Below are positions 4,131 through 58,073 of a DNA stretch of 64,000 bases, piece by piece. A model generated the notes under the pieces. The model ran no database searches. It had not been told where the DNA came from and worked only from the letters and a program-made list of their open reading frames with translations. How positions within the stretch are numbered: position 1 is the stretch's first letter; every line of letters begins with the position of its first letter. The DNA is from Candidatus Woesearchaeota archaeon (lineage in GTDB: Archaea > Nanobdellota > Nanobdellia > Woesearchaeales > ARS49). The stretch spans positions 114,492 through 178,491 of the forward strand of contig JAHWHZ010000003.1 of the NCBI GenBank assembly GCA_019322895.1. The letters run 5' to 3'. Both the position numbers and the translations under genes were made by a program.

Positions 4131-4718
4131 TTAAACCTGTTTCTTAGGTATGATCAATTCAATATTTCTTATCTCAGAACCAGCTATTGGGTATGTTTTT
4201 CTTAATGAGTCCTGCATTGTTCTTTGGAACTTGCCTTGGAGTATCTCTCTCATCAGGACTTCGTATTTTGTTTTTGTTATTATTTTAGAAAGATATTCTT
4301 TTATTTGTTTTCTTATTGCTGACTTGACACCGCCCTGCGCTCTTCCTCTTGTCACTATGAGCGGTTTTACCCTGACTTTCTTTTCATCTGCTGTCTTGAA
4401 CAGCATAGAATCATCGATTTTTGACCTGTTTCTTCGCATCATTCTTTTTGTTGCAGCTGTGTTCAGCCTGTAGCCAATAAGGTCTGTCTGCAGTTTCTCG
4501 CCGACAACACTGCTTATCAGGAATTTCAGCATAGTGTTCTGCTTTCTCGGGTCTCCTGTCACAGCAGCCATGCTGACAGTCAGTTTCCTGCCTATTGTTG
4601 CCTGCGGCTCTTCTACATGCATCTCTCCTATCTCTTTCTCATTGAAGAGCTTTGGGGCTATCACAGGAACCCATCTCTTCTTCTTCACTACTACTTTTGC
4701 TGCCTTTTTTTTAGCCAT
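4131..4718 (-). CDS. rps3ae: 30S ribosomal protein S3Ae (eS1)
   Basis: KKKRWVPVIAPKLFNEKEIGE... with the length and basic composition typical of archaeal S3Ae. Confidence 0.9.
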   Translation of the reverse strand: MAKKKAAKVVVKKKRWVPVIAPKLFNEKEIGEMHVEEPQATIGRKLTVSMAAVTGDPRKQNTMLKFLISSVVGEKLQTDLIGYRLNTAATKRMMRRNRSKIDDSMLFKTADEKKVRVKPLIVTRGRAQGGVKSAIRKQIKEYLSKIITKTKYEVLMREILQGKFQRTMQDSLRKTYPIAGSEIRNIELIIPKKQV

Positions 4719-4781
4719 GTTATTCTCAGAATTGATGTTTGGTTTATAAAGCTTTTTATTCTGCTATGCTGCCACAAGAAA

Positions 4782-4964
4782 CATTGCTGCCTGCGGAGTT
4801 CTCAAGTTTGCATGCCTGCTTTGATAAACCTGAGTTACAAGCAGGTTAAACAGCGTAACGAAGCGCAGCATTGCTGCATTGCGAAGTTCTCAGATTCTTA
4901 TGCTTGATATGATAAATCTGAATTACAGGCAGTTTCAGCAGCAGAATGGAGCGCAGCATTGCTG
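4782..4964 (+). repeat. tandem repeat family 2: two full units (4782-4868, 4869-4956) plus an 8-nt start of a third
   Basis: Both units share cattgctgc..gcgaagttctca..gcttgata(a/t)..ctga.ttaca.gcag.tt.a.cag....agcgcag. A third copy lies at 9161..9255. Confidence 0.85.
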
Positions 4965-4966
4965 TC

Positions 4967-5278
4967 TTATTCTTCTACAACCTGTGGCTGGCTTAGCTCG
5001 CACTTGTCCTTGTAAGGGCATGGATTTTTTTGCCTGTTCTGCCACTCAATGCACTGTCTTTTATCCTGCCCGTCTTTAGTATCCTTGTATTCAATAAAAT
5101 ATGCTTTCCTGCCAGACAGCGGGCAATCTCCCACGCATAAGATTGCAAAAGAAACTGTCTTTCTTTTCCTGTACCTGGATGCAATCTTTTCTGCAGAATC
5201 AATTATCATAGGGTCTTCATTGAACCTTTCTTCAGCTAAAATTTCTAAGTTTTTCTTGTCTGATTTTCCCATCTTCAC
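4967..5278 (-). CDS. hypothetical protein (103 aa, Cys-containing)
   Basis: Track ORF with no recognisable motif. Its stop abuts the family-2 repeat array. Confidence 0.45.
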   Translation of the reverse strand: MKMGKSDKKNLEILAEERFNEDPMIIDSAEKIASRYRKRKTVSFAILCVGDCPLSGRKAYFIEYKDTKDGQDKRQCIEWQNRQKNPCPYKDKCELSQPQVVEE

Positions 5279-5332
5279 CCACCAATACTTTAGAAAGTAC
5301 TTGTCCTTTATAAAATTATTCAGATATCCAGC

Positions 5333-5450
5333 AAATTTTTAAAAAATTTGACTAAAGCGCTCTTCGTTCAGGCTCCAGAAGCACCCCATTAGCTGTTTGC
5401 TTCGCAAACAGGGGCTCTACTCTTCTCTCGCCTTCACGATATCGCGCGAA
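5333..5450 (+). mobile_element. R-element copy 1 (AT hairpin aaatttttaaaaaattt plus 91-nt core 5357-5447), abutting the gyrB stop codon
   Basis: The core aligns by eye along its whole length with 31711-31802 and with the reverse complement of 57912-58003. It is flanked by ttagatatcaagc (gyrB end) and ttcagatatccagc. Confidence 0.6.
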
Positions 5451-7496
<2,046 letters not shown>

Positions 7497-9160: not shown

Positions 9161-9255
9161 CAATGCTGCCTGCGAAGTTCTCAGATGCATATTTGTGCTT
9201 TGATAAGTCTGAGTTACGGGCAGGTTCAGCAGCAGAACAAAGCGCAGCATGGCTG
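9161..9255 (+). repeat. tandem repeat family 2, solitary third copy
   Basis: caatgctgcctgcgaagttctcagat...gctttgataagtctgagttacgggcaggttcagcagcagaacaaagcgcagcatggctg aligns with the 4782-4964 units. Confidence 0.8.
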
Positions 9256-9462
9256 TTTTCGCTCTTTTCCCCTTTTTAAACCTTGTGATATTTTGGCCTG
9301 TAACAGCCTTTCACAGCGTATTTATAAAGGCTTTACTTTCTTGTTCTTGAGGTGAATAAAAATGTTCAATGACAAGACACTCAAAGCATTGCCTGTAGAA
9401 AGGCACGAAGTTTCATACTTAAGAATGCTTGGTGCAAAGCAGCAAAGAAGCAAGCACTGGTG

Positions 9463-10968: not shown

Positions 10969-11394
10969 ATGCCATATGGAGATGGAACAGGTCCTGATGG
11001 AATAGGACCAATGACTGGAAGAGGCGCAGGATATTGCGCAGGCTATGATAGCCCTGGCTTTACAAGAGGAATGCCAAGAGGAGGCCGTGGAAGAGGCTTT
11101 GGTAGAGGCCGAGGCTATGGAAGAGGAATGGGCCGTGGAAGAGGCTTTGGTTTTGGAAGAGGATTCTTTGGCTTTGCCAGAGGACTTGGAAGAAGCCTTT
11201 TCGGCTATAGAAGACAAGCATACGGGCCGGCATATGCAGAACCTGCATGGGAGCCGTATGCAGAGCCGACAAAAGAAGAGCAAAAAGCAATGATGGAAAA
11301 CGAAGCAAAAGCAATTGAAGAAGAGCAAAAAGCTTTAAAAGAAGAACTGGAATACATTAAAAAGAAACTAGCAGAAATGAACAAAAAGAGGTAA
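10969..11394 (+). CDS. DUF5320-like protein (Gly/Arg-rich centre, C-terminal coiled coil)
   Basis: The likely start MPYGDGTGPDGIGPMTGRGAGYCAGY lies after a GGGAGG Shine-Dalgarno at about 10956. It is followed by (GRG)n repeats and a C-terminal EEQKALKEELEYIKKKLAEM. Confidence 0.6.
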   Translation: MPYGDGTGPDGIGPMTGRGAGYCAGYDSPGFTRGMPRGGRGRGFGRGRGYGRGMGRGRGFGFGRGFFGFARGLGRSLFGYRRQAYGPAYAEPAWEPYAEPTKEEQKAMMENEAKAIEEEQKALKEELEYIKKKLAEMNKKR

Positions 11395-12361: not shown

Positions 12362-12850
12362 ATGCCAAGACCAAGACTTCATAGAAGGATAAGATTCTGG
12401 CCAGGAGTCACGCACTTCAAGCCGGCAGGAGTGCGGCTTGCAGAACTGCATGAAGTGGTGCTTACGATGGGAGAATTTGAAGCGATACGATTATGTGATC
12501 TTGAGGATACTAGCCAAAAAGATGCGGCAAAAAAGATGAATGTGTCACAGCCGACACTACAAAGAGTGCTTGCATCTGCAAGAAAAAAGATAGCAGATGC
12601 ACTTGCAAATGGAAAATCAATAAGAATTGAAGGAGGCGAATATAAAATGGTAGCACCAAGAGGACAAGGAAGAGGTCTTAGAAGAGGCATGGGCCCGGGA
12701 ATGGGCAGAGGAAGAATGGGAGGCATGGCAGCAGGACCTGCAGGAGAATGCATTTGCCCTAACTGCGGAGAAAGAGTGCCGCACCAGAGAGGAATCCCTT
12801 GCACAGAAAGAAAATGCCCAAAATGCGGGGCAATGATGACAAGAGGTTAA
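12362..12850 (+). CDS. DUF134 (UPF0251) DNA-binding protein with C-terminal Cys4 zinc ribbon
   Basis: MPRPRLHRRIRFWPGVTHFKPAG...LTMGEFEAIRLCDLEDTSQKDAAKKMNVSQPTLQRVLASARKKIADAL, then GMGPGMGRGRMGG, then CPNCG...CPKCG. Confidence 0.75.
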   Translation: MPRPRLHRRIRFWPGVTHFKPAGVRLAELHEVVLTMGEFEAIRLCDLEDTSQKDAAKKMNVSQPTLQRVLASARKKIADALANGKSIRIEGGEYKMVAPRGQGRGLRRGMGPGMGRGRMGGMAAGPAGECICPNCGERVPHQRGIPCTERKCPKCGAMMTRG

Positions 12851-12855
12851 AAAAA

Positions 12856-13296
12856 ATGAAGATAGCAATAAGCTCAAGCGGCGAAAATCTTGACAGCCCT
12901 ATTGACCCAAGATTCGGAAGATGTCCTTTTTTCATGATTGTTGAAATTGAGGACAAGAAAATAAAGGACAGTAATGCGATAAACAATACTGCGATGATGC
13001 AGGGCGGAGGAGCTGGCATAACTGCAGCGCAGGTTGTAGGCAATGCGGGTGCAGAAGCAGTAATTGCAGTAAACTATGGTCCCAGAGCATTCGGAGTTCT
13101 TTCAGAATTAGGTATTGAAATGTATCAAGGAGTGCAGGGCACAGTAAAGGAAAATGTGCAGCAATTAATTGAAGGAAAACTTAAAAAGCTTGAAGCAGCA
13201 ACAGGACCTATGGGAATGGGACCAAAACCCGGCATGGGTCCAGGTGGTGGCCGGGGCCAAGGACCAGGCAGAGGACAAGGAAGAGGAAACATGTAA
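12856..13296 (+). CDS. NifX/NifB-like (dinitrogenase FeMo-cofactor-binding fold) protein with Gly/Pro/Arg-rich tail
   Basis: MKIAISSSGENLDSPIDPRFGRCPFFMIVEIEDKK...GGGAGITAAQVVGNAGAEAVIAVNYGPRAF, with the tail GPMGMGPKPGMGPGGGRGQGPGRGQGRG. Confidence 0.7.
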   Translation: MKIAISSSGENLDSPIDPRFGRCPFFMIVEIEDKKIKDSNAINNTAMMQGGGAGITAAQVVGNAGAEAVIAVNYGPRAFGVLSELGIEMYQGVQGTVKENVQQLIEGKLKKLEAATGPMGMGPKPGMGPGGGRGQGPGRGQGRGNM

Positions 13297-31346: not shown

Positions 31347-31619
31347 CGTGTCTTTCCTCCCAAATATCTCTTGTTTTTAAAGTATAAATAACTTTCTATA
31401 TACTTATAGGTAACAGTGACCATTTATAAAGCTTATGGTTTTTTAACTACTTTTCAGTGTCAAAAACAAAAGATTTAAATACTACTAGTGTTTACCTATT
31501 ATTACCATGAAACGAGTTGATTGTATTCATTGTGGATAAACTGAATTCTTATTTTATTAGTTCCAGCTCTATGATGCGAAGTGATTGTATTCATCATCGC
31601 TAGTTCTAAATTCATTCTT

Positions 31620-31687
31620 GGCGGCAGTGGCGTAATGGTAGCGTATGGGACTGTGGCTCCCATGGCGCGGGTTCGATTCCCACCTAA
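31620..31687 (+). pseudogene. truncated tRNA-His relic (5' 62 nt identical to the functional copy, no 3' acceptor strand)
   Basis: 31620-31681 is identical to 31815-31876. The sequence then diverges (cccacctaac vs cccgcctgcc), so the acceptor stem cannot close. Confidence 0.8.
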
Positions 31688-31802
31688 CTTTGAAAAAGTT
31701 AGGATCAAAATGCGTTCTTTGTTCAGGCTCCAGAAGCAATCTATAGGCTGTTTGCTCTGCAAACAGGGATTCAACTCTTCTCTCACCCTCACAATATCAC
31801 GC
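31683..31802 (+). mobile_element. R-element copy 2 (hairpin cctaactttgaaaaagttagg plus core 31711-31802) between the tRNA-His relic and the intact tRNA-His
   Basis: Aligns with 5333-5450 and with the reverse complement of 57912-58032. Confidence 0.6.
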
Positions 31803-31814
31803 AATATTAATTAT

Positions 31815-31886
31815 GGCGGCAGTGGCGTAATGGTAGCGTATGGGACTGTGGCTCCCATGGCGCGGGTTCGATTCCCGCCTGCCGCC
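31815..31886 (+). tRNA. tRNA-His: tRNA-His (GUG) with genome-encoded G-1
   Basis: 8-bp acceptor GGCGGCAG/CTGCCGCC, D arm GGCG..., anticodon arm TGGGA-CTGTGGC-TCCCA (anticodon GTG), T arm GCGGG-TTCGATT-CCCGC. Confidence 0.9.
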
Positions 31887-31936
31887 CTTGATTCTCAAAA
31901 AGATTTATATATAATAATGAATGCAGGTGAATTAAA

Positions 31937-33196
31937 ATGAAATACCAAGCACCAAAAGGGATGGAAGACTATTACCCTGAGAGAGAAGCTGTAAAGAATA
32001 AGATATTTCAGGTATTTAGAGAGGTAGCCATAAGATACGGCTATCAGGAAGTGAGCACTCCTGCAATGGAGTCTTTCAAGCTATTATCTGCTAAGTCTGG
32101 TGAAGAGATAAAACAGCAGATTTTCATGATAGAGAAAAGAGGCGCTGAAAGCCTTGGCTTGAGATTTGATTTGACTGTTCCTATCACAAGGTTATTTATC
32201 ACAAAGCAAAAAGAGCTTGTAAAGCCGGTTAAGTGGTTTTCTATAGGAAAGATGTGGCGCTATGAAGCTCCGCAAAAAGGAAGATTAAGGGAATTCAACC
32301 AATTGAGTGTTGAATTGTTTGGCTCTGACAAGCCAGAGGCAGATGCAGAATTATTGAACATGATAATTGACATAATGAAAGCTCTTGGATTAAGTGACAG
32401 GGATTTCTTTATCAAGATGAACAACAGGAAATTGCTGGAAGGCCTTTTATTGACTGCAATCAAGAAAGACCAGCTGGAAGCAGTTACAAGAGTTATTGAC
32501 AAGAAAAACAAGCTCACAGATGCAGAGTTTGAGCAGGAACTGCTTGACTTGGGGCTGGATAATTTCAAGATCCAGAGGATAAGGCATGCTATACAGTTCA
32601 ATGGCAAGCCGAGCAAGGTCTTGAAAGATATTAAAGAGCATTTTGCAGATGTTCCTGAAGAGACCAAGAGAGGAATAATTGAGATGGAGAATATCTGCAA
32701 GCTAGTTTCAGAAAAATATGTTGTACTGGACTTGTCAGTAGCCCGCGGCCTGGCTTATTACACAGGGACCGTGTTTGAGGTGTTTGACAGGCAGGAAAAA
32801 TTCCGCTCAATGGCAGGCGGAGGCAGGTATGACAATATGGTGAAATTATTTGGAGGAGAAGACTGCCCTGCAACCGGCTTTGCTATCGGAGAAGCTGTAA
32901 CAACTTTAGTGTTAAAGGACTGCAACAAGCTTCCAGAGCCAGAATTAGAGCCAGACTATTTCATAGCTGTCGTGAGCGAGGATGTAAGAAAAGATGCAAT
33001 GAAGCTTGCAGAGAAATTAAGGAAAAAATACAAGGTTGACATTGACCTGATGGGCAGGAAACTGAAAAAGCAATTTGAATATGCGAATTCTATCAAGGCA
33101 AAGAAAGTGATTGTTGTGGGCCCTGATGAAGTCAAGGCAAAGACTTTCACAGTTAAGGACATGAAGACTGGAAAAGAAGAGAAAAAGAAGCTTTAA
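31937..33196 (+). CDS. hisS: histidine--tRNA ligase
   Basis: APKGMEDYYP, class II motif 2 (KMWRYEAPQKGRLREFNQ) and motif 3 (GGGRYDNMV). AGGTGA Shine-Dalgarno upstream. Confidence 0.93.
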   Translation: MKYQAPKGMEDYYPEREAVKNKIFQVFREVAIRYGYQEVSTPAMESFKLLSAKSGEEIKQQIFMIEKRGAESLGLRFDLTVPITRLFITKQKELVKPVKWFSIGKMWRYEAPQKGRLREFNQLSVELFGSDKPEADAELLNMIIDIMKALGLSDRDFFIKMNNRKLLEGLLLTAIKKDQLEAVTRVIDKKNKLTDAEFEQELLDLGLDNFKIQRIRHAIQFNGKPSKVLKDIKEHFADVPEETKRGIIEMENICKLVSEKYVVLDLSVARGLAYYTGTVFEVFDRQEKFRSMAGGGRYDNMVKLFGGEDCPATGFAIGEAVTTLVLKDCNKLPEPELEPDYFIAVVSEDVRKDAMKLAEKLRKKYKVDIDLMGRKLKKQFEYANSIKAKKVIVVGPDEVKAKTFTVKDMKTGKEEKKKL

Positions 33197-45417: not shown

Positions 45418-45785
45418 AAATACAAACATATCAAGGAGAAAATATTAGAGCCATCTTAGATAAAGCCCCTTATGATTGGAGAGCTACAGGGACATATGGT
45501 GTAGAAAGATCATTAAAAAATGGCAAGATATCGAACATATTACTAATCTATGTCAATTCCAGAGATTTAAAAGAGTGGGATAAATATCTAACAGCTAATT
45601 CTGTCAAATCAACAAAAGTTTTGCCCGATCTAAAACTTGTCGGTGTTGATACCCTTCCAGAATCTTCAAAAAAAGATAGAAACGTAGTGGATATAAGCCA
45701 CCTTATTGCTGATTTAGAGAAAGTCGCTCCACGGTATCGTGAAACACATCCTGAAATCGTAGAGCATTTAAGCGATGTTGCTTAA
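45414..45785 (+). CDS. hypothetical protein, translationally coupled to the AbiEii-like gene
   Basis: 4-nt ATGA overlap with the upstream gene. No motif recognised. Confidence 0.5.
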   Translation: MKIQTYQGENIRAILDKAPYDWRATGTYGVERSLKNGKISNILLIYVNSRDLKEWDKYLTANSVKSTKVLPDLKLVGVDTLPESSKKDRNVVDISHLIADLEKVAPRYRETHPEIVEHLSDVA

Positions 45786-45795
45786 TTCTTAGTCA
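45782..45795 (-). repeat. 14-nt stump of a map 3'-end relic
   Basis: ttaattcttagtca is identical to 49768-49781. It encodes TKN* in map sense and is fused directly to the palindrome tcactaaatagtga. Confidence 0.5.
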
Positions 45796-45830
45796 CTAAA
45801 TAGTGATTACAAACCAAAAGCTTTATAAAG
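45793..45830 (+). promoter_or_regulatory. palindrome (tcactaaatagtga) plus TATA box (ctttataaag)
   Basis: Same layout as 47202 and 48486. Confidence 0.5.
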
Positions 45831-45875
45831 GGCGTTTGCCTTTAGTAAATCAATTACCTTTAGAGGGGTGGAAAA

Positions 45876-46556
45876 ATGAGTGAAGAAAAATTAGAAAATA
45901 TGATTCAAAATGGACGAGCAGTAATTGATGCTTCTCCTGATGGTTTTATTTGGTGTCCTTTAGATGATGGATTTATGTGTGACTTAGACAGAAGGGCAGA
46001 GTTAATAGAAAAATATAATTCTGGAGATACTGACGAGCTAAATAAAGAGCTGCTGCCTGGAGCAGTGTATGCAACCTTTGAAGAAATAGAAGGCGCAAGC
46101 AGGTCAAGCGGTGGAGTTGTCAAGATTGATCCTGTAACAGGCAAAATCGTAAGTCTTCATACCCAAGATGAAGGAACTCGAACATACTTGACAGCGGCTT
46201 TTGGAGGCCCGCATATTAACTTTTTTGCATTTAATGATAAAAAGCCAACAGAAAAACCAACAGTCACAATAAAGATTGAATACAACGCTAAAACCGGCAA
46301 ATGGAACTTTGAAGGGCCGCTTCTAAAAACACAAAAAAGCGACTTGATTAAGGGGTTCTTAAATATACATCCCTTTGCAAAAGATTCTGGGAAGACAAAT
46401 CAGCAGGACAAATATACTATCGAACTGAACTGGTACCACAAGACAGATCATGCTGAAATTGTCAGCGACAATACAGGAAATCCCCACTATAGAAATATCC
46501 TTTTAGAAGGCGCGTGGGCAGAATTAAGAAGCGCGGAATTAAAAGGTAAACTTTAG
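45876..46556 (+). CDS. hypothetical protein (226 aa)
   Basis: The Shine-Dalgarno GAGGGGTGG lies upstream. No motif recognised. Confidence 0.55.
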   Translation: MSEEKLENMIQNGRAVIDASPDGFIWCPLDDGFMCDLDRRAELIEKYNSGDTDELNKELLPGAVYATFEEIEGASRSSGGVVKIDPVTGKIVSLHTQDEGTRTYLTAAFGGPHINFFAFNDKKPTEKPTVTIKIEYNAKTGKWNFEGPLLKTQKSDLIKGFLNIHPFAKDSGKTNQQDKYTIELNWYHKTDHAEIVSDNTGNPHYRNILLEGAWAELRSAELKGKL

Positions 46557-46569
46557 GAGGAAAACCAAA

Positions 46570-47094
46570 ATGACTGAAGAAAAATTTATCCCAAAAAAAG
46601 ACTTTAAAGAAGATCTCACGCAAACTTACTTACTAGGTAAAGAGAACTTTCAAAATCCTGAAAGTCCTATTGTAAAACATGAAACCTTATGCAATAAATT
46701 GTTTGCAATGGAACTTGCACCTTCTATTGACATGTCAAACGTAAGAGCAGAAGACAGGCCTTATGTTCACGAGGTTGTGCAATACCTTAGACAGAATGGT
46801 TTAAGACCAGAACTAAAAGGCAGTGCGCTTATGGGAAACATGTATGGTGATATTGACATTCTTGCAACAGGAAGTCTTGAAGATCTAACAAACGTGACAC
46901 GGGCGCTTAATGGAGCACAAGATATTGCAAATCCATTCTACAGCACAGCTGCAGACGGTGAAGAGTATACTGTTGCGCATGAAGGCGAAAATGTTGCTTA
47001 CATGCACGAGAATCTTGCACAGCTGTTCAATATACTTGTCGGCGACACAAAAATTCATCTCGGCCTTAAAGGATCAGGCGTGATAGGAAGTTAA
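46570..47094 (+). CDS. Pol-beta-superfamily nucleotidyltransferase-fold protein
   Basis: KGSALMGNMYGDIDILATGS matches the GS-x(n)-DxD minimal NTase motif. AGGAGG Shine-Dalgarno upstream. Confidence 0.5.
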   Translation: MTEEKFIPKKDFKEDLTQTYLLGKENFQNPESPIVKHETLCNKLFAMELAPSIDMSNVRAEDRPYVHEVVQYLRQNGLRPELKGSALMGNMYGDIDILATGSLEDLTNVTRALNGAQDIANPFYSTAADGEEYTVAHEGENVAYMHENLAQLFNILVGDTKIHLGLKGSGVIGS

Positions 47095-47103
47095 TTTTTT
47101 TAT

Positions 47104-47199
47104 TTATTCTATTTTTGTCAGAATCTCAACTTTATCGTCTACAAGCAATGTATGTTCTGCCTGTGATACAATTCCTTTGTTTTTCTCGACCAAAGGAAA
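47104..47199 (-). repeat. relic A of the map 3' terminus
   Basis: In map sense it reads FPLVEKNKGIVSQAEHTLLVDDKVEILTKIE*. The native map end is FPPLPEKNKGIVSQAEHTLLIEDKVEILTKNTTFK*. Confidence 0.85.
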
Positions 47200-47201
47200 A
47201 A

Positions 47202-47243
47202 TTAATCACTATTAAGTGATTAGAAAACCGAAGATTTAAATAC
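47202..47243 (+). promoter_or_regulatory. perfect palindrome (ttaatcact atta agtgattaa-type) plus TATA box (atttaaatac)
   Basis: TAATCACT/AGTGATTA 8-bp arms. TATA about 25-35 nt upstream of the 47268 start. Confidence 0.55.
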
Positions 47244-47267
47244 TTTTGAATATTAACATGTAGCACC

Positions 47268-48038
47268 ATGAGCAAAGATGAATCTGCGGAATTTCAAACA
47301 AAGGAATTTCAAGAGGATGAATTTAGACAGGTAATTGAAAGGTCTAAAGAATTAATAGCCAGAGGGTATTTTACTGGAATAAATTTTCTGCAATCAGAGG
47401 AGCCTCTGCCGACAAATTCTATAATCGTACACTTTCTTCATGATAGCAAACAGCATTTGGATGAAATCATATCCACTGTGCCTGCTGCGCGTTTGGTAGT
47501 CCCTAGATTCACTTGCTATATGTTAGATCCTAAATATTTTCAAAAGCCCAATTTTGCTGAAGAATACAAAGATGCGGTTTTTTTCGATTCTAATTTCAAG
47601 ATAATTACAGTTGAGGATGCGATTGCAAACCCTTTGGGTACGACAGTACTCAATAGAGAGTTGGATTTAATAGTCCCTCTTCACGACAGTAAAGATTTAT
47701 ACGATACTGTGCATGCTTTGCAAGAGGCAGACGAAGAAGGCCCGTATCAATGGATAGATCCAGTTCTTATTGTAAAAACAAAAACGCCCGTTACTGCTCT
47801 AGAAGGTTTTGTTGACAAACAGTACGTTAGTATCGCAAAAGAAAGAGAAGAGTTTTATTCAATCTTAACCGACGAGGAAAGAACAGATGCCCTATCAAAA
47901 TATTTAGATAAATTATGTGCTGCCACAAAAATAGGGACATTACAAAGAAGCGATATTGTTTTCAATACAAGTCAGGTAAACGAAAAGTTTGCAGACTTTC
48001 TAGTTAATATTCAGAACCAGCTTCAAATCTTTGAATAG
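47268..48038 (+). CDS. hypothetical protein (256 aa)
   Basis: Track ORF with no motif recognised. Confidence 0.55.
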   Translation: MSKDESAEFQTKEFQEDEFRQVIERSKELIARGYFTGINFLQSEEPLPTNSIIVHFLHDSKQHLDEIISTVPAARLVVPRFTCYMLDPKYFQKPNFAEEYKDAVFFDSNFKIITVEDAIANPLGTTVLNRELDLIVPLHDSKDLYDTVHALQEADEEGPYQWIDPVLIVKTKTPVTALEGFVDKQYVSIAKEREEFYSILTDEERTDALSKYLDKLCAATKIGTLQRSDIVFNTSQVNEKFADFLVNIQNQLQIFE

Positions 48039-48321
48039 TTTCTCTCAACTTTTGTTTAGAATAAACATCAGTAAGTTTTTGAGGTCCTCCGCCACGCACT
48101 CCTTTTTCAAACGCCTCTTGTAATGGATTAGAAATACCGTTTTTATGTATGCGGTACTTATATTCTATTTCTCCCCAGCCATATCGCCATTCACTAATAC
48201 ATCCGTCATTGGGCAATTCTGCAAGAACTTCAATTAATTTTGGTAGATTCTCCTGACTAATACAGTCTAAACCTTCTATTTCTGGATCTTCTGATGCTTT
48301 TCTTAGTGTTTCTACTAACAT
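48004..48321 (-). CDS. hypothetical protein (105 aa), convergent and overlapping 47268..48038 by 35 nt
   Basis: Track ORF with no motif recognised. Confidence 0.4.
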   Translation of the reverse strand: MLVETLRKASEDPEIEGLDCISQENLPKLIEVLAELPNDGCISEWRYGWGEIEYKYRIHKNGISNPLQEAFEKGVRGGGPQKLTDVYSKQKLRETIQRFEAGSEY

Positions 48322-48393
48322 TTTCCTATGTGTTATATGCCTCCAGAAGTATATAAATCTTTTGAAATAAATCTGGCAACATGCGTAAAATAA

Positions 48394-48473
48394 CTAATTC
48401 TTAGTCAGAATCTCAACTTTATCATCTACAAGCAAAGTATGCTCTGCCTGAGAGACAATTCCTTTGTTTTTTT
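48394..48473 (-). repeat. relic B of the map 3' terminus
   Basis: In map sense it reads QKNKGIVSQAEHTLLVDDKVEILTKN*. Confidence 0.85.
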
Positions 48474-48485
48474 GTTAAACAACAA

Positions 48486-48537
48486 TTAATTACTATTTAG
48501 TAGTTATAAACCAGAAGATTTAAATATCCTGCTAATT
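48486..48537 (+). promoter_or_regulatory. near-palindrome (ttaattactatttagtagttataa) plus TATA box (atttaaatat)
   Basis: Same layout and position relative to the relic as at 47202. Confidence 0.5.
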
Positions 48538-48549
48538 TAGAAATACTCA

Positions 48550-49407
48550 ATGATACTTATCCATGATTTGACAGGGATTTGTGAAGATAAGAGAAAAGAA
48601 GTGATTGCCTGCTTAGACGAATTATTGACATATAGAGATTCAGATGGTTTGTTAGTTCCGGTGATTTCTGGATACAATTGGTACGCAAAATTAACAAAAT
48701 CTGACCGCGTAATTACTTTCTCTAATATTCATGAAACAGAATCCTACAAAGAAGATATGTTAAGAGATTTAGAAGAATTAGGATATGACCATAAAGATAT
48801 ACTAAATCAAATAAGGGAAAAAGCAGGTGCGTTCATACATGACCTTGAATTCAGACTAAGAGATGATGACGGCAATCTGCTCCCTGGATTGAGAATAAAA
48901 GACACTCGAACAGGAAAATACATTGACTTGGAGAACTACCAAGATGCCTTGATAAATTACCAAGAATTTACTGATGCAGAAGGTTGTTTGATTGATGAAG
49001 ACCAAGGGTGGGAGTTAGATATGCCATTTAAAGGGGAGCGAGAATTAATGAGTCTTGTGAATCTCTTTCTAAAAAAATCCGGAAAGCATATTTATGATGT
49101 AAGAGGCAACATAATCAAAGAAACAGACGAAGAACAAGACGCGCGAGCTCCTTGGTCTGATGCATACAAAGTTCCTGTTTTGCTCTTAGGCGAAACCGCT
49201 TTGCGTTATGCAGATAAATTGCCTCAGTTTGTTCCAGTAACTAAATTTGCACTAAAAGAAAACAACAACGAAATAAGTTTCATAATCCATAACAACATAA
49301 AATATTTAAAAAGCTTGAATCAATATACTCAATTACTTAGATTTGGATTTGCTGAAGAAGAATGTCTGGGGAATAAACCGTTCATAAGGTATGTTGACGA
49401 AATATAA
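48550..49407 (+). CDS. hypothetical protein (285 aa)
   Basis: Track ORF with no motif recognised. Confidence 0.55.
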   Translation: MILIHDLTGICEDKRKEVIACLDELLTYRDSDGLLVPVISGYNWYAKLTKSDRVITFSNIHETESYKEDMLRDLEELGYDHKDILNQIREKAGAFIHDLEFRLRDDDGNLLPGLRIKDTRTGKYIDLENYQDALINYQEFTDAEGCLIDEDQGWELDMPFKGERELMSLVNLFLKKSGKHIYDVRGNIIKETDEEQDARAPWSDAYKVPVLLLGETALRYADKLPQFVPVTKFALKENNNEISFIIHNNIKYLKSLNQYTQLLRFGFAEEECLGNKPFIRYVDEI

Positions 49408-49454
49408 ACAAATAAGTCGATACCTTTAAATAGTTAAATAACTATGTAATAACC

Positions 49455-49736
49455 ATGCCAACAGAAACAATCGTAAAAGATCCTAAGCGAATGACCCTTT
49501 CTGAAATAAAGCAGACACTAACAAATATTATCGCTTATGAGCAAGAAACAAGAGAGTCTTGGGTAGTCCTTAAAATGCAAAACAGGCAATTAGGCGCGAT
49601 TCACTATGTAACATCACAAAAAGAAGCAGAAAAAGAGATTAATGCACCAGTATCCAGCAATCCAAGAACGTGTGAATGGGGCTTAAAATTTTATTCTCGT
49701 TCTGATTTAGAGCAATTAAAAGAAAAATATAGTTAA
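49455..49736 (+). CDS. hypothetical protein (93 aa)
   Basis: The TATA-like cctttaaatag and the palindrome atagttaaataactat lie just upstream. Confidence 0.5.
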   Translation: MPTETIVKDPKRMTLSEIKQTLTNIIAYEQETRESWVVLKMQNRQLGAIHYVTSQKEAEKEINAPVSSNPRTCEWGLKFYSRSDLEQLKEKYS

Positions 49737-49767
49737 ATAAGAAAAACAAAATTATATTCTTGGATTT

Positions 49768-49823
49768 TTAATTCTTAGTCAAAATCTCAACTTTATCATC
49801 TATACGCAATATGCACTCTGCCT
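49768..49823 (-). repeat. relic C of the map 3' terminus (more diverged, truncated)
   Basis: In map sense it reads AECILRIDDKVEILTKN*. Similarity ends exactly at the stop codon of the HEPN gene. Confidence 0.7.
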
Positions 49824-50246
49824 TTACTCCTCGACTAATGACATTAAGAACTGGATAATCTTCATTATTTCTTCCTTGTTTTTCTCATAAAAAGAGATAT
49901 CAACTGCTTCACCGTAATAATTTAGCCTGTTCCTTAAGTAACTCATTTCTGAAATCAAATTAGCTTCAAACTCGCGGTCTGAATGCTTTCGGTAAAAATA
50001 AGAGATGAGGCATTGATGATTCTTTGATTTCAAACCGTGTTTTAGCAATAATGCCACAAGCAATTCCTTGATAATCTCATAATAACCCTCAATGATAAAA
50101 GAAACATTGTCTTTATTAACTTGCTGGCTGTCAATAAATTTTCTTCTTTTACTGACTGTATCGAGTATGGAATTGATCTTTTCCTTGTCAGGAGTCACGG
50201 TTCTGATAAATTGCCGCTTGCATTCGCCCCAATCCATCAAATTCAT
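49824..50246 (-). CDS. HEPN-domain protein (partner of the MNT nucleotidyltransferase)
   Basis: 140 aa, all-helical. The MSYLRNRLNYYGE region resembles the RNxxxY/H HEPN motif. 4-nt overlap with the upstream NTase gene. Confidence 0.6.
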   Translation of the reverse strand: MNLMDWGECKRQFIRTVTPDKEKINSILDTVSKRRKFIDSQQVNKDNVSFIIEGYYEIIKELLVALLLKHGLKSKNHQCLISYFYRKHSDREFEANLISEMSYLRNRLNYYGEAVDISFYEKNKEEIMKIIQFLMSLVEE

Positions 50247-50749
50247 CTTATTTTAAAAAACCCCTCAATCTTGATCCCGTTAACCACGTTATTAAATAAG
50301 TTGTCTGGCAAATCATTGATATCCCGCTCAGCAAAAAGCTGGATTTTGTGGCCTAGTATCTTCTCAAATTGGGCCAGGTCCAAATCCTGCTTCTTTAAGG
50401 CTTCAACAAACAAGTCAATATCACTTTCTTTAGCTGATTCGCCTTTCCTGAAACTGCCAAAAAGAATTATGCACGCAGGCCTTAACTGCTCAGCAAGATA
50501 TGCTATCAAGCCGCTTTCAAATAACTCCTTGATATAAAAAAAGGTCTTTTCTGTCTTAAACAAAGCAGTATTGGCTGCCTTGTTTTCTTTAGTCACCCTC
50601 CTGCTCTTTTTAAGCTCTCTTAGATACTTGTGAACAGTTGATTTTGGAATCCTTGTCTTTTTGGCTAGTTCCCGGACTGTAAACCGCTTCTCAGGATACT
50701 CGTAAAAAATCCTCAGAATTTTGTCCAGATTATTGTACTTTAGTCCCAT
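50243..50749 (-). CDS. wHTH-fused minimal nucleotidyltransferase (MNT)
   Basis: N-terminal wHTH (FTVRELAKKTRIPKSTVHKYLRELKK), then the canonical IILFGSFRKGESAKESDIDLFV NTase motif. Confidence 0.8.
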   Translation of the reverse strand: MGLKYNNLDKILRIFYEYPEKRFTVRELAKKTRIPKSTVHKYLRELKKSRRVTKENKAANTALFKTEKTFFYIKELFESGLIAYLAEQLRPACIILFGSFRKGESAKESDIDLFVEALKKQDLDLAQFEKILGHKIQLFAERDINDLPDNLFNNVVNGIKIEGFFKIR

Positions 50750-50781
50750 TTTATGTCCTTAAGTCCCAATAAATGGACTAA

Positions 50782-51711
50782 CTATTTAAATGTTGTGTTC
50801 TTGGTCAGAATCTCAACTTTATCCTCTATCAGCAAAGTATGCTCTGCCTGTGAGACAATTCCTTTGTTTTTCTCTGGCAGTGGAGGAAACTGCTTTATTA
50901 TGTCGTTTTTCAGAAGTTCTCTTAAAGCAAAATTAGTCTTTCCTAAGCCGAATTTTCTTGAAAGCCATCTTGTTGTAAATGGCAAAGTTTTGTAGTTCTC
51001 TGCAACAAATTTCAGGATTTCCCGTGCAAAAGGGCTGCGGACAGGCTTTGGATTTGTGAGCATAAAGATGTTTGCTCTTTCTTTTTCATATATCATTCCT
51101 GCCCCGTTTGTTGCAAACGGCTCTATTGCGATTATCATACCTTTTTTTAATTCTGTCTTGTCTCCTGTGTCAAAATTAGGTATTGTTGGTTTTGTGTGGA
51201 TGTCATAATAATCCAGCCCATGGCCAGATAAGTTTTTTACAGGCGAGAATCCATAGCTTGATATTGTCTCTTGTATTGTCTTGCCTATCTCTCCCAAGGA
51301 AGTTCCTATCTGGACTATCTTTATTGCATTGTTCAATGCCTCTCTTGATGCTTTCACTAATTCACTCCATTTTCCGCTTAAGTCAACTGTCAGTGCATTG
51401 TCGCCAATAGCGCCACTGACATGAACACCAACATCCAAGCAGGCCACCTGGTTCTCAAAGATGGTCTTGTCATCTGGGTCTGCGCAGTAATGTGCAGCGA
51501 TATTATCGCAGCTTATCTGCGCTGGAAAAGCAATCTGCCCTCCTAAGTCAATTATTTTTTTCTCTATCATGTCAGAGACTTCAAGCAAAGAAGCTCCTTT
51601 CTTGATTAATCCGCCGCCATATTCAAGGGCTTGCGCTGCTATTTTTCCTGCTTTTCTCCAGTGCTCTAAATCCTCTGGAGTTAGGCCGTCTAAGACACTT
51701 TTCTCTTCCAT
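50782..51711 (-). CDS. map: type 2 (archaeal/eukaryotic-like) methionine aminopeptidase
   Basis: IAAHYCADPDD, LDVGVHVSGAIGD, NLSGHGL, IIAIEPFAT and SQAEHTLLI supply the five metal-ligand regions in the expected order. Confidence 0.92.
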   Translation of the reverse strand: MEEKSVLDGLTPEDLEHWRKAGKIAAQALEYGGGLIKKGASLLEVSDMIEKKIIDLGGQIAFPAQISCDNIAAHYCADPDDKTIFENQVACLDVGVHVSGAIGDNALTVDLSGKWSELVKASREALNNAIKIVQIGTSLGEIGKTIQETISSYGFSPVKNLSGHGLDYYDIHTKPTIPNFDTGDKTELKKGMIIAIEPFATNGAGMIYEKERANIFMLTNPKPVRSPFAREILKFVAENYKTLPFTTRWLSRKFGLGKTNFALRELLKNDIIKQFPPLPEKNKGIVSQAEHTLLIEDKVEILTKNTTFK

Positions 51712-56759: not shown

Positions 56760-57911
56760 ATGAATATTTCAAATATCTTGATGATAGCATTCTTGATAAT
56801 CCTTAGTCTTACGATATTCATATTCAGGAAGAAATTCAAGTTCCACAGATTTGCAAAGATATTCTATTTTGGGATGTACAAGACAAAAGTGGGATTAAGG
56901 TTGATGGATAAGTGGGCAAATAAGTATCCGAGGATATTAAGAAGATTGTGCTATGCTGCGATTGCAGTCGGATTCATCGGCATGGTTATAGTTGTAGTTG
57001 ACTTGGCCAAATCACTTTATTCAATACTTGCAGGAACATCCACCTTGACAGTTGGACTGGTATTGCCTGTTGAAGCCAAAGGAATCTTTTATGTTCCTTT
57101 TATTTACTGGATTATTGCGGTTTTTGCAATTGTTGTTGTGCACGAGTTTGCGCACGGATTGATTGCAAGGCTGCACAAGATCCGCGTGAAAAGCTCTGGC
57201 GTTGCTTTCTTGGGAGCGATAATCCCTATCATTCCAGCTGCTTTTGTTGAGCCAGATGAAAAGCAGTTAAGAAAAGCTTCAAGATTCAAGCAGTTGAGTG
57301 TCTATGCAGCAGGGCCTTTTGCAAACATTATTTTCGGCTTTGCTTGTTTAGGAATATTTGCATTACTGCTTAATCCTCTTGCAGCCTCTGTATATAATTT
57401 AGAGGGTGTCAAGGTAAATGATTTCATGGGCGTTGACAGCCCTGCAGAGATAAGCGGCATGGCAGCAGGAGATGTGATCACACAAATCAATGACAATGAA
57501 ATAAAGAATACAGATGATTTCATTAATGCGATTGACAAGGCAAATCCAGGTGATGTTGCAGAGATACAGACAAAAGAAAAAACTTATGAAGTATTGTTAG
57601 AAGAAGATCCTGTTGAAAAAGATGCTTTCCTTGGAATCTGGGTGTCAACAGAAAAGTCAATGAAAAACAAGAACCCGTTCTCTTATCTTGTAATATGGCT
57701 GACTGACTTGTTTTACTGGTTATTCTTGCTAAACTTGGGAGTAGGATTGTTCAACCTGATTCCAGTCGGCCCGATTGACGGCGGAAGGATGCTCCAGACT
57801 GTTTTAGAAAAAGTGATGCACACTAAAAAAGCAACAAAAGTGTGGCATGCTGTTAGTTTTGTTGTGCTGGCGATAATTTTAAGTAATATAATTTATGCAT
57901 TTGTGGCATAA
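56760..57911 (+). CDS. site-2 protease (M50 family) with PDZ domain
   Basis: HEFAHGLIA (HExxH) within a TM helix, a PDZ-like GMAAGDVITQINDNEI segment, and C-terminal NLIPVGPIDGG. Confidence 0.9.
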   Translation: MNISNILMIAFLIILSLTIFIFRKKFKFHRFAKIFYFGMYKTKVGLRLMDKWANKYPRILRRLCYAAIAVGFIGMVIVVVDLAKSLYSILAGTSTLTVGLVLPVEAKGIFYVPFIYWIIAVFAIVVVHEFAHGLIARLHKIRVKSSGVAFLGAIIPIIPAAFVEPDEKQLRKASRFKQLSVYAAGPFANIIFGFACLGIFALLLNPLAASVYNLEGVKVNDFMGVDSPAEISGMAAGDVITQINDNEIKNTDDFINAIDKANPGDVAEIQTKEKTYEVLLEEDPVEKDAFLGIWVSTEKSMKNKNPFSYLVIWLTDLFYWLFLLNLGVGLFNLIPVGPIDGGRMLQTVLEKVMHTKKATKVWHAVSFVVLAIILSNIIYAFVA

Positions 57912-58040
57912 GCGCGATATTGTGAAGGCGAGAGAAGAGTTAAATCCATGTTTGCGTGAGCAAACATCATATCGATTGCTTCTGGAGCCTGAACAAAGAG
58001 CGCCCTTTGATCCTAACTTTTTTAAAGTTAGGCGATCATA
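57912..58040 (-). mobile_element. R-element copy 3 (core 57912-58003, hairpin 58012-58032), inverted relative to copies 1 and 2
   Basis: Begins at the base after the S2P stop codon. Flanked by 33-nt direct repeats at 57879-57911 and 58041-58073. Confidence 0.65.
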
Positions 58041-58073
58041 TTAAGTAATATAATATACGCATTTGTGGCTTAA
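58041..58073 (+). repeat. displaced copy of the last 33 nt of the S2P protease gene
   Basis: 30/33 identical to 57879-57911. All three differences are synonymous, and both copies read LSNIIYAFVA*. Confidence 0.85.

What the first reader, a model, noticed from the sequence alone, without database searches (positions are those of the whole stretch)
5357..5447. The 91-nt R-core shows compensatory base changes in three stems, suggesting a structured RNA (or DNA) rather than a plain repeat
Three stems covary among the copies at 5357-5447, 31711-31802 and the reverse complement of 57912-58003. (i) Terminal stem: GCGC...GCGC in copies 1 and 3, and GCGT...ACGC in copy 2. (ii) Central hairpin: CTGTTTGC-loop-GCAAACAG in copies 1 and 2, and ATGTTTGC-loop-GCAAACAT in copy 3, with loops TTCG, TCT and TCAC. 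(iii) An outer extension of that hairpin: CCCC...GGGG, AATC...GATT and ATC...GAT. In gene-sense orientation the core is followed by a hairpin whose loop is a T-run, which would be terminator-like for archaea. Next to the terminal stem it also carries weak GTGA ... CTGA boxes (K-turn or C/D-like, not canonical). Conservation of pairing rather than sequence argues for selection on structure.
Basis: seen in the sequence. Interest (0 to 1): 0.7.

Follow-up and report, generated by a model that had tools for sequence, protein, structure and literature searches.

The report
Small structured mobile element of Woesearchaeota
The 91-base repeat is the folded core of a roughly 120-base jumping element found in one group of tiny archaea; selection keeps its hairpin shape, and it inserts at gene ends while duplicating a variable stretch (6-70 bases) of the target, which no described prokaryotic transposon family does.

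Summary
Three copies lie at the stated coordinates, and 14 further distinct copies were recovered from related Woesearchaeota contigs. In a 17-copy alignment, 24 base pairs are 99% maintained. Ten pairs show changes on both sides, and 0 of 500 shuffles reach the observed covariation. The core folds into one interrupted rod of 4+4+4+5+7-9 bp, with invariant purine-rich internal loops on the strand complementary to the finding's orientation. No Rfam family matches.

The core is not a free-standing RNA gene. It is part of a 120-135 nt non-autonomous mobile element: a variable tail, the rod, a CTTTGATC linker and an A/T hairpin "head". Close relatives have clean empty sites at the gyrB and M50 loci. 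Most copies are flanked by direct duplications of the local target, 6 to 70 nt long. These create a pseudo-tRNA-His and duplicated gene ends, and convert TGA stops to TAA. There are no terminal inverted repeats. The head is shared with a second element family. No transposase or reverse transcriptase was seen nearby.

RNA versus single-stranded DNA as the folded intermediate remains unresolved. The insertion mechanism is inferred to be target-primed copying. Known hairpin mobile DNAs (REPINs) also show compensatory changes, so covariation alone does not prove a functional RNA.

The parts
5357..5447 (-). Copy 1, rod-shaped core. The strand given is the one that folds best.
   Evidence: (110.9 bits)
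5332..5356 (-). Copy 1, head hairpin CAAATTTTTAAAAAATTTG plus linker ACTAAA.
   Evidence: The sequence differs from copies 2 and 3, but the hairpin is kept.
5448..5452 (-). Copy 1, tail AATTC (as read on the - strand). Its AA completes the new TAA stop codon of gyrB.
   Evidence: comparison with the empty site in L050
5322..5332 (.). Copy 1, displaced copy of the duplicated target (rc: GCTGGATATCT). It is followed by the original TGA stop and the next gene's TATA box.
5453..5463 (.). Copy 1, retained copy of the duplicated target (rc: GCTTGATATCT). These are the last codons of gyrB (5451-7385, - strand).
31712..31802 (-). Copy 2, core.
   Evidence: 110.4 bits
31685..31711 (-). Copy 2, head hairpin TAACTTTGAAAAAGTTA plus linker GGATCAAAAT.
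31803..31813 (-). Copy 2, tail (AATATTAATTA on the + strand). The same tail occurs in the orthologous insertion in L026.
31619..31685 (+). Copy 2, displaced duplicate of the target. It covers the first about 65 nt of tRNA-His with one mismatch in the T stem and no 3' acceptor strand, so it is a pseudo-tRNA.
   Evidence: D6: 67 nt, 99%; 44 bits against 68 bits for the intact gene
31814..31880 (+). Copy 2, retained duplicate. It lies within the intact tRNA-His gene (31816-31887).
57912..58003 (+). Copy 3, core. It begins directly after the TAA stop of the M50 protease gene (56760-57911).
   Evidence: 111.2 bits
58004..58030 (+). Copy 3, linker CCTTTGATC plus head hairpin CTAACTTTTTTAAAGTTAG.
57869..57911 (+). 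Copy 3, retained duplicate: the last 43 nt of the M50 gene including the stop codon.
   Evidence: D9
58031..58073 (+). Copy 3, displaced duplicate (88% identical; all 5 differences are synonymous in the M50 frame). It abuts the start of the next gene.

Best explanation
WHAT IT IS. The 91-92 nt core is the structured body of a 120-135 nt non-autonomous mobile element family confined, so far, to one clade of Woesearchaeota (DPANN archaea). Read on the folding strand, the element consists of four parts:
- a short variable tail, often AATT.. or AA;
- a rod of five helices separated by invariant purine-rich internal loops (GAUA/AGA, GA/GA, GAG/GGA);
- a CTTTGATC linker;
- an 8-9 bp A/T hairpin, the 'head'.

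SHOWN.
- The element is present or absent at orthologous sites.
- It inserts at gene boundaries: after the stop codons of gyrB and M50, at tRNA ends, and at a promoter or start codon.
- Most insertions are flanked by a direct duplication of 6-70 nt of the target, so the neighbouring gene stays intact.
- The head-side junction lies after a C-rich target end (CGCC| on the finding's strand) with 1-3 nt of microhomology.
- The helices covary, while the loops and the central helices are invariant.

INFERRED.
- The element is copied through a single-stranded intermediate of the folding strand, either RNA or ssDNA.
- The rod and head are what the trans-acting machinery recognises, which is why pairing is preserved.
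- The mechanism I commit to, at about 40%, is target-primed copying. A nick leaves a ...CC-3'OH. That end anneals to the terminal G(G) of the head and primes synthesis across head, linker and rod. The second strand is broken a variable distance away, and fill-in creates the variable duplication.
- Whether the template is RNA (reverse transcription) or DNA is open, roughly even odds.

SECONDARY EFFECTS. Some are shown and some inferred. The copies break assemblies. They serve as sites of homologous recombination (an inversion-type rearrangement in L040). They convert TGA stops to TAA. In sense orientation they place a hairpin with a T5-6 run behind the upstream gene.
For: Copies and structure.
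- Three window copies and chance expectation.
- 14 further distinct copies from Woesearchaeota contigs.
- 17-copy alignment: 99.0% of 408 cells paired, 10 pairs with double changes, 0/500 shuffles reach the covariation score, slid controls 34-50% paired. The 13-copy alignment gives the same picture.
- L010 1322-1415 was not picked up by the search word. There the stem AGGC/GCCU is GAAC/GUUC.
- L015 has an entirely different central helix sequence.

Mobility.
- Flanking duplications: 67 nt, 43 nt; 39, about 57, about 70, 14-18, 8 nt; 11 and 31 nt at the same gyrB junction.
- Empty sites: L050 and L051 for gyrB; L035-L038 and L041 for M50. The window itself is an empty site for the second tRNA-His insertion of L010.
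- Native flank: window gyrB is 92-95% identical to L050 right up to the stop codon.

Other points.
- The head is shared by a second family: L024 431-540, L010 1069-1178, L023 1690-1780.
- Head-only or head-retaining fragments: L028 tRNA-Asp intron and L010 1627-1660.
- Strand: 11 G.U against 3 A.C cells, and GNRA/GAA loops.
- No Rfam match.
Against: - No transposase, reverse transcriptase, HUH or integrase gene was seen among 39 window ORFs or in the Pfam lists of about 250 kb of related loci. The machinery is therefore hypothetical.
- Four copies (L021-L024) show no detectable flanking duplication.
- Truncated remnants exist at both ends. L055 and L039 keep only the first 10-30 nt of the rod. 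Truncation polarity therefore does not clearly favour a primed-copying model.
- The rod-side junction is oddly precise: T|GA at gyrB (twice independently), at M50 and at L015. Simple target-primed copying does not predict this; it may reflect selection for intact genes.
- Differences between the two duplicate copies are mostly synonymous or tRNA-compatible (11 synonymous against 2 non-synonymous codons). Neutral decay of a simple target-site duplication does not predict this. It points to extra recombination or gene conversion.
- The central loop GCGAAGC is also a classic stable DNA mini-hairpin (my own knowledge). The loops therefore do not discriminate RNA from DNA.
Confidence: 0.75

Rival explanations
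1. Host-functional cis-acting RNA. The rod plus hairpin is a 3'-UTR module (transcript stabiliser, terminator or protein-binding platform, for example for L7Ae-type proteins) kept by selection at each locus. Its spread is secondary.
For: - In sense orientation it starts 0-5 nt after the stop codons of gyrB and M50, after the L029 gene, and after the 3' end of a tRNA in L030.
- G.U tolerance and purine-rich loops lie on that strand.
- The head has a T5-6 run.
- The outer 30 nt on each side are nearly identical between lineages whose orthologous genes are only about 75% identical in DNA.
Against: - At the tRNA-His sites (window copy 2, L010, L024, L026, L040) and at L015 the folding strand is antisense to, or upstream of, the neighbouring gene.
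- There is no conserved promoter.
- The closest relatives lack it at the same sites with no visible consequence.
- Flanking duplications mark insertion events.
- There is no canonical K-turn and no Rfam hit.
Confidence: 0.12
2. Single-stranded-DNA hairpin transposon of the REPIN / IS200-IS605 (HUH Y1 transposase) kind. The rod and head are DNA hairpins recognised on one strand at the replication fork.
For: - It is a long imperfect hairpin of about 90 nt located just beyond gene ends.
- The signal is strand-specific.
- Compensatory changes are documented for REPINs (PMC3116915).
- There are no terminal inverted repeats.
- Insertion occurs next to a short preferred target end.
- The GCGAAGC loop is a very stable DNA hairpin (own knowledge).
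Against: - IS200/IS605 elements and REPINs make no target duplication (established knowledge of the family). Here the duplications are 6-70 nt.
- There is no GTAG or CGTC tag.
- No Y1 transposase or RAYT was seen in the sequence held.
- The two end structures are unrelated to each other.
Confidence: 0.2
3. No dedicated machinery. Copies arise by microhomology-mediated template switching during replication or repair. A nascent strand jumps onto an existing copy at the head, is released at the base of the rod, and returns upstream. Copies are then spread between strains by homologous recombination.
For: - Duplication length is variable.
- There are 1-3 nt of microhomology at the head junction.
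- Element boundaries coincide with the bases of stable hairpins.
- Clear recombination is seen: L039 is 98-100% identical to L036 until the last 72 nt of M50 and then 76%.
- L040 shows a rearrangement between copies.
- Duplicate differences are mostly synonymous.
Against: - At least 10 independent insertions of the same unit with the same boundaries occur at unrelated loci.
- Two independent hits occur at the identical gyrB junction.
- Sub-families with coordinated changes in head, linker and stems behave like master-copy lineages of an active element.
Confidence: 0.12
4. Leftover attachment sites of integrative elements (virus or plasmid) that target tRNA genes and gene 3' ends. The direct repeats would be att sites and the 120 nt a remnant of the integrated element.
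For: Repeats of 43-70 nt at a tRNA gene and at gene 3' ends resemble archaeal att duplications.
Against: - The same 120-nt unit lies between repeats of unrelated sequence at many loci. One integrase/attP pair cannot explain them.
- Repeat length goes down to 6-11 nt.
- There are no integrase remnants.
- Nothing was found in viral contigs.
Confidence: 0.03

Closest known systems
REPINs / REP sequences mobilised by RAYTs (bacteria)
   Same: - A non-coding, roughly 70-110 nt imperfect hairpin.
- Many copies, located just outside genes.
- Compensatory changes across the hairpin (PMC3116915).
- Persistence within a lineage.
   Different: - This element is archaeal.
- It makes variable 6-70 nt target duplications.
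- It has an extra head hairpin at one end only.
- It has no GTAG/CGTC tag.
- No RAYT was found.
- Its internal loops are invariant and purine-rich rather than the two arms being near-perfect inverted copies.
SINEs and other target-primed retroposons (eukaryotes)
   Same: - Variable-length target duplications.
- One conserved structured end, shared by different families.
- Variable sequence at the other end.
- Fragments that keep the conserved end.
- A strand-specific structural signal.
   Different: - No A-tail and no internal promoter.
- No partner reverse transcriptase identified.
- This kind of element has not been described in archaea.
- The rod-side junction is unusually precise.
Classical prokaryotic MITEs (including Sulfolobus SM elements, Correia, RUP)
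   Same: Small, non-coding, multi-copy, with insertion polymorphism and the capacity to fold.
   Different: No terminal inverted repeats and no fixed duplication length, so it is not a deletion derivative of a DDE insertion sequence.
IS200/IS605-derived palindrome-associated elements (PATEs)
   Same: Hairpins near the ends, no inverted terminal repeats, insertion next to a short preferred target end, strand asymmetry.
   Different: Those elements make no target duplication, and their left and right hairpins are related and bound by TnpA. Here the two end structures are unrelated.
Integron attC sites
   Same: A structure-conserved, sequence-variable single-strand hairpin with unpaired bases, of similar size.
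   Different: - Not arranged in cassette arrays.
- No R/L boxes (GTTRRRY).
- No integrase nearby.
- Dispersed at gene ends with target duplications.

Membership tests
Any Rfam RNA family | Score at or above the family's gathering threshold | tested here: not met
   (whole window) found only the tRNA and the pseudo-tRNA. One search (31600-31900, E-value up to 10, both strands) found nothing over the element.
Box C/D sRNA / K-turn RNA | C box RUGAUGA and D box CUGA forming a K-turn (3-nt bulge followed by tandem G.A), with guide regions | tested here: not met
   On the folding strand, UGUGA and CUGA face each other as a symmetric 2x2 GA/GA loop flanked by Watson-Crick helices on both sides. There is no bulge, no RUGAUGA, no guide and no Rfam hit.
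Classical MITE (DDE-derived) | Terminal inverted repeats | tested here: not met
   The ends are CTAACTTT... and ...GCGC(AATT) and are not complementary to each other (sequences).
Classical MITE (DDE-derived) | Target-site duplication of fixed length | tested here: not met
   Observed lengths are 6-8, 11, 14-18, about 20, 31, 37-39, 43, about 57 and 67-70 nt.
REPIN / RAYT system | Two inverted REP units forming a long hairpin | tested here: inconclusive
   A long hairpin is present, but the arms differ at invariant asymmetric loops.
REPIN / RAYT system | No target duplication; associated single-copy RAYT gene | tested here: not met
   Duplications are present. No Y1 transposase domain appears in the window ORFs or in the gene lists of related loci. 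Whole genomes were not available.
IS200/IS605-type ssDNA element | Insertion 3' of a fixed tetra- or pentanucleotide, without duplication | tested here: not met
   The target end is only loosely C-rich (CGCC, CTCC, CCAC, CAGC), and duplications are present.
SINE-like retroposon (target-primed reverse transcription) | Variable-length target duplications | tested here: met
SINE-like retroposon (target-primed reverse transcription) | 3' end shared with a partner or with other families; truncation from the 5' end | tested here: inconclusive
   The head is shared with family B. Head-retaining fragments exist in L010 and L028. Fragments that retain only the opposite end also exist in L039 and L055.
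SINE-like retroposon (target-primed reverse transcription) | RNA intermediate and a reverse transcriptase partner | not testable with these tools
   No RNA data are available. No RT domain was seen in the sequence held. Collection scans were exhausted before a partner search could be made.
Integrative element att remnant | Same att core at every integration | tested here: not met
   The flanking repeats are unrelated sequences at each locus.
Casposon-derived element | Terminal inverted repeats and a 14-15 bp duplication | tested here: not met
   No inverted termini, and the duplication length is variable.

The most novel reading that the evidence does not exclude
The element is an archaeal SINE-like retroposon. 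Copies lying in sense behind genes are transcribed. The RNA folds into the rod and head. A still unidentified reverse transcriptase/nuclease recognises the head, nicks C-rich target ends and copies the RNA into the chromosome by target-primed reverse transcription. This gives the variable 6-70 nt duplications. It would be the first non-LTR-type retroposition system described in Archaea.
Probability: 0.15. Interest if true: 0.9.

Novelty: new variant of a known kind. Interest (0 to 1): 0.6.

Why it matters
Small non-autonomous mobile elements are poorly known in archaea and essentially undescribed in DPANN lineages.

This family combines several unusual features:
- a covarying rod with invariant purine-rich loops;
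- a single conserved end shared by two families;
- target duplications that vary tenfold in length.

No described prokaryotic transposition chemistry (DDE, HUH, serine or tyrosine recombinase, Cas1) produces that pattern. The element therefore either reports an unknown machinery, possibly target-primed copying, or an unusually efficient repair-based route of spread.

In practice it has several consequences:
- it creates pseudo-tRNAs and duplicated gene ends;
- it rewrites stop codons;
- it breaks metagenomic assemblies;
- it mediates rearrangement and introgression between Woesearchaeota strains.

It is also a caution that covariation in a repeat does not by itself identify an RNA gene.

Tried and rejected
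- Rfam at gathering and permissive thresholds found nothing over the element.
- Viral contig scans found no element. Five matches to the head pattern were AT-rich chance hits in coding sequence.
- DGR template/variable-repeat reading of the flanking repeats: rejected. The differences are not adenine-specific (window 57869-57911 against 58031-58073).
- Guide or antisense RNA reading of the displaced duplicate: rejected. The duplicate is sense at some loci and antisense at others.
- Coding reading: a frame is open through copies 1 and 2 and L015, but it is stopped in copy 3 and shifted by loop indels. Rejected.
- 'The element always arrives together with donor flanking gene sequence': this holds for the P0008 lineage at M50 but is rejected for window copy 1, whose flank is native.
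- Bulge-helix-bulge intron reading: the rod has symmetric loops, not staggered 3-nt bulges. This was not pursued further.
- The 88-89 nt repeats at 4792-4968 and 9171-9259 were folded. They show no significant structure and no relation to the element.
- Literature searches found no description of this element.
- Fifteen of the 19 genome-collection hits and one of the 11 metagenome hits were chance matches in bacteria.

Full report
OBSERVATION

The invariant 18-mer GTTCAGGCTCCAGAAGCA occurs three times, against 0.07 expected from shuffles. A second 20-mer block behaves the same way.

The terminal stem (GCGC/GCGC versus GCGT/ACGC) and the central hairpin (CTGTTTGC/GCAAACAG versus ATGTTTGC/GCAAACAT) are as described. 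Copy 1's loop is TTC rather than TTCG.

Each core folds as one interrupted rod, much better than shuffled sequence (z from -2.0 to -5.0).

ANATOMY

The repeat is longer than 91 nt. On the strand that folds best it reads, 5' to 3', as follows:
- a short variable tail (AATTC in copy 1, TAATTAATATT in copy 2, AA in copy 3);
- the 92-nt rod;
- a linker (C)CTTTGATC;
- an 8-9 bp A/T hairpin whose loop is a run of 4-6 T. I call this hairpin the head.

The head of copy 1 (CAAATTTTT.AAAAATTTG) differs in sequence from that of copies 2 and 3 (CTAACTTT..AAAGTTAG), but it is still a hairpin.

RELATIVES AND COVARIATION

One scan of species-representative genomes and one of metagenome contigs gave 19 and 11 loci. 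Of these, 4 and 10 carry the element. The rest are chance matches in bacteria.

A covariance model then found a diverged copy in L010 that the search word could not have selected. It also found copies at orthologous gyrB and M50 loci of related genomes.

The hosts are Woesearchaeota. The M50 and gyrB proteins have their best named relatives there. The contig labelled Methanosarcinales (L010/L042) encodes an M50 protein 79% identical to the window's, so it belongs with them (inference).

In the 17-copy alignment:
- 24 pairs are 99.0% paired;
- 10 pairs show changes on both sides (23 cells);
- none of 500 column shuffles reaches the covariation score or the paired fraction;
- sliding the partner by 1-3 columns drops pairing to 34-50% (the 13-copy version is).

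The strongest single cases are two. In L010 1322-1415, AGGC/GCCU has become GAAC/GUUC. In L015 the central helix is AUCCUUGUC/GACAAGGAU.

The 5-bp helix AGAAG/CUUCU and the loops GA/GA and GAG/GGA never or almost never vary.

The alignment was fitted to the model, and the copies are related by descent. The shuffle counts are therefore not probabilities. The slid controls and the independently found diverged copy make chance an inadequate explanation.

STRAND

On the complement of the finding's orientation (for copies 1 and 2) there are 11 G.U cells and 3 A.C cells. Four-base loops are GUGA, GAAA and GCAA (GNRA) in 4 of 5 cases. Three-base loops are mostly GAA. All internal loops are purine-rich.

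This identifies the folding strand. It does not settle RNA versus DNA. G.T is the best-tolerated DNA mismatch, and GCGAAGC is a well-known very stable DNA mini-hairpin (my own knowledge).

THE ELEMENT IS MOBILE

(a) Flanking direct duplications of the local sequence:
- 67 nt at copy 2. This is the first about 65 nt of tRNA-His. The upstream copy is a pseudo-tRNA scoring 44 bits against 68 for the intact gene.
- 43 nt at copy 3, the end of the M50 gene.
- 11 nt at copy 1.
- In other genomes: 39, about 57, about 70, 14-18, about 20, 31 and 6-8 nt.
- Four copies show none.

(b) Empty sites:
- L050, whose gyrB is 93% identical in protein, reads ...GAGCTTGACATCTGAGTAATTTTATAAGG. The window reads ...GAGCTTGATATCT[AATTC-rod-linker-head]CTGGATATCTGAATAATTTTATAAAGG.
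- L036 reads ...GTAGCATGAATTCTGTTTCACAACATTTATATA. L042 has ...GTCGCTT[AA-rod-linker-head]ATTGACAGTAATATTATTTATGCTTTTGTCGCTTGAGTTCTCTTTCATAACATTTATATA.
- The window itself is the empty site for a second insertion that L010 and L024 carry directly after tRNA-His.

(c) Independent events:
- The window and L052 carry the element at the same gyrB junction (T|AATTC(T)GCGCG) but with duplications of 11 and 31 nt.
- The window's gyrB is 92-95% identical to the empty L050 right up to the stop codon. The element therefore entered native DNA on its own.
- In both lineages the gene's stop is now TAA (T plus the element's AA), while the displaced copy keeps the original TGA.

(d) Contigs of other assemblies of the same strain end inside or just after the element, as expected of a multi-copy repeat.

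JUNCTIONS, FRAGMENTS AND A SECOND FAMILY

On the finding's strand the head is always joined to the end of the upstream duplicate. That end is C-rich (CGCC four times; also CTCC, CCAC, TGCC, CAGC). The join has 1-3 nt that could belong to either partner.

There are no terminal inverted repeats.

Head-plus-linker occurs without the rod in two places:
- in the canonical-position intron of a tRNA-Asp gene, L028 7057-7185 (25/25 identical to the element 230 nt upstream);
- as a remnant beside the L010 insertion.

Rod-start remnants occur in L039 (10 nt) and L055 (about 30 nt).

A second element family has a different multi-hairpin body but the same head and linker. It is found at L024 431-540, L010 1069-1178 and L023 1690-1780. 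It is absent from the corresponding place in the window, and one copy is flanked by a degenerate duplicate of a tRNA 3' end.

The head is therefore the constant module of the mobile unit.

AFTERLIFE OF THE DUPLICATES

Differences between the two duplicates are mostly of a kind compatible with function:
- All 5 differences at copy 3 are synonymous. Both copies encode AIILSNIIYAFVA*.
- There are 2 in L025, 2 in L052, and 1 each at copy 1 and in L029. That gives 11 synonymous differences, against 2 non-synonymous codons (L039, L042).
- The pseudo-tRNA-His of L010 differs from the resident tRNA-His at about 15 positions, yet keeps a compensated anticodon stem and resembles the window's allele.

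Simple neutral decay of one copy does not predict this.

Recombination is clearly at work:
- L039 is 98-100% identical to the empty L036 over nt 630-1080 of M50. It then falls to 76% in the last 72 nt, where it resembles the window.
- The L026 pseudo-tRNA is a mosaic.
- L040 has the same M50 gene and element as L039. After the head, however, it continues into the reverse complement of tRNA-His and its upstream flank. This is as expected from recombination between two inverted copies.

I regard the synonymous bias as unexplained in detail. Candidates are gene conversion, allelic recombination with crossovers in the conserved element, or repeated excision through the duplicates.

WHAT IT IS NOT

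- It matches no Rfam family.
- It is not a canonical K-turn or C/D RNA.
- It is not a DDE-type MITE: no inverted termini and no fixed duplication length.
- It is not an IS200/IS605 element or a REPIN, because those make no duplication.
- It is not an att remnant, because the flanks are unrelated at each locus.
- It is not a casposon derivative.
- It is not on viral contigs.

No transposase, reverse transcriptase, HUH or integrase domain was found in 39 window ORFs, which are ordinary chromosomal genes: ribosomal protein S3Ae, RIO kinase, GyrB, HisRS, FtsZ and the M50 protease. None appears in the gene lists of related loci.

MECHANISM

Shown: mobility, variable duplication, one shared end, a strand-specific structural constraint, and microhomology at the head junction.

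Inferred: the element is copied through a single-stranded form of the folding strand, and the rod and head are the features recognised in trans.

The route I think most likely (about 40%) is target-primed copying from the head, with the second-strand break at a variable distance. The template is RNA or DNA with roughly equal odds.

Rivals are:
- an HUH-type ssDNA element with an unexplained duplication step;
- spread by template switching and recombination without a dedicated enzyme;
- a host-functional 3'-UTR RNA.

Any benefit to the host, such as a terminator or a 3' protective structure behind gyrB and M50, is possible but untested.

LIMITS

No expression data and no complete genome were available.

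Noticed in passing
window 31621-31691: A pseudo-tRNA-His (Rfam tRNA 44 bits; one T-stem mismatch; acceptor 3' strand replaced by the element's head). It lies 125 nt upstream of the intact tRNA-His (31816-31887), which sits directly upstream of the histidyl-tRNA synthetase gene (31937-33196).
   Followed up: yes
L028 7057-7185 (= L004): A tRNA-Asp(GTC) gene that ARAGORN misses. Its canonical-position intron of about 57 nt contains the element's head plus linker (CAAACTTTAGAAAAGTTTGATCAAA), identical to the full element 230 nt upstream.
   Followed up: partly
L024 431-540, L010 1069-1178, L023 1690-1780: A second small element family ('B') has the same head hairpin and linker but a different multi-hairpin body. 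It is absent from the corresponding position in the window (between 31568 and 31569).
   Followed up: partly
L040 1836-2030 versus L039 11151-11330: The M50 protein is identical, but the sequence after the element differs. L040 continues into the reverse complement of tRNA-His and its upstream flank. This suggests an inversion by recombination between two inverted element copies. In the window, copies 2 and 3 are inverted and 26 kb apart.
   Followed up: partly
L014 about 4624-4865: An element copy whose central hairpin is interrupted by an insert of about 125 nt with inverted ends TGTCAGAA.../...TTCTTGACA. This is a different, classical-looking MITE nested inside it. It was not found elsewhere in the sequence held.
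   Followed up: partly
window 4792-4968 and 9171-9259: Three copies of an 88-89 nt repeat (two in tandem between the S3Ae gene and the gene downstream of gyrB, one 4.3 kb away). Each ends in a GCAGCATTGCTGC hairpin. They show no significant fold (z from -1.0 to +0.9) and no Rfam hit.
   Followed up: partly
window 31507-31535 and 31571-31599: Two related boxes lie upstream of tRNA-His: ATGAAACGAGTTGATTGTATTCATTGTGG and ATGATGCGAAGTGATTGTATTCATCATCG. They are conserved in L010 and L024. Family B inserts between them. Their function is unknown; they are possibly a small RNA or a promoter element.
   Followed up: no
window 45784-50871: An array of paralogous genes with no Pfam match (45876-46556, 47268-48038, 48550-49407 and others). 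They have repeated promoter-like boxes (AAGATTTAAATA) and repeated 74-nt segments spaced about 1.3 kb apart.
   Followed up: no
window 11083-11162, 12662-12693, 13249-13280: Glycine/arginine-rich coding repeats (GRGRGFGRG-type) occur in several small ORFs.
   Followed up: no
L010 / L042 (CAZXEZ010000001.1): This contig is labelled as a Methanosarcinales MAG. It encodes M50 and neighbouring genes 79% identical to, and syntenic with, the Woesearchaeota window, so it is probably mis-binned or mislabelled.
   Followed up: partly
L055 10259-10300: After the gyrB stop only the tail and the first about 30 nt of the rod remain, followed by unrelated sequence. This is a deletion or rearrangement with a breakpoint inside the element.
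   Followed up: no
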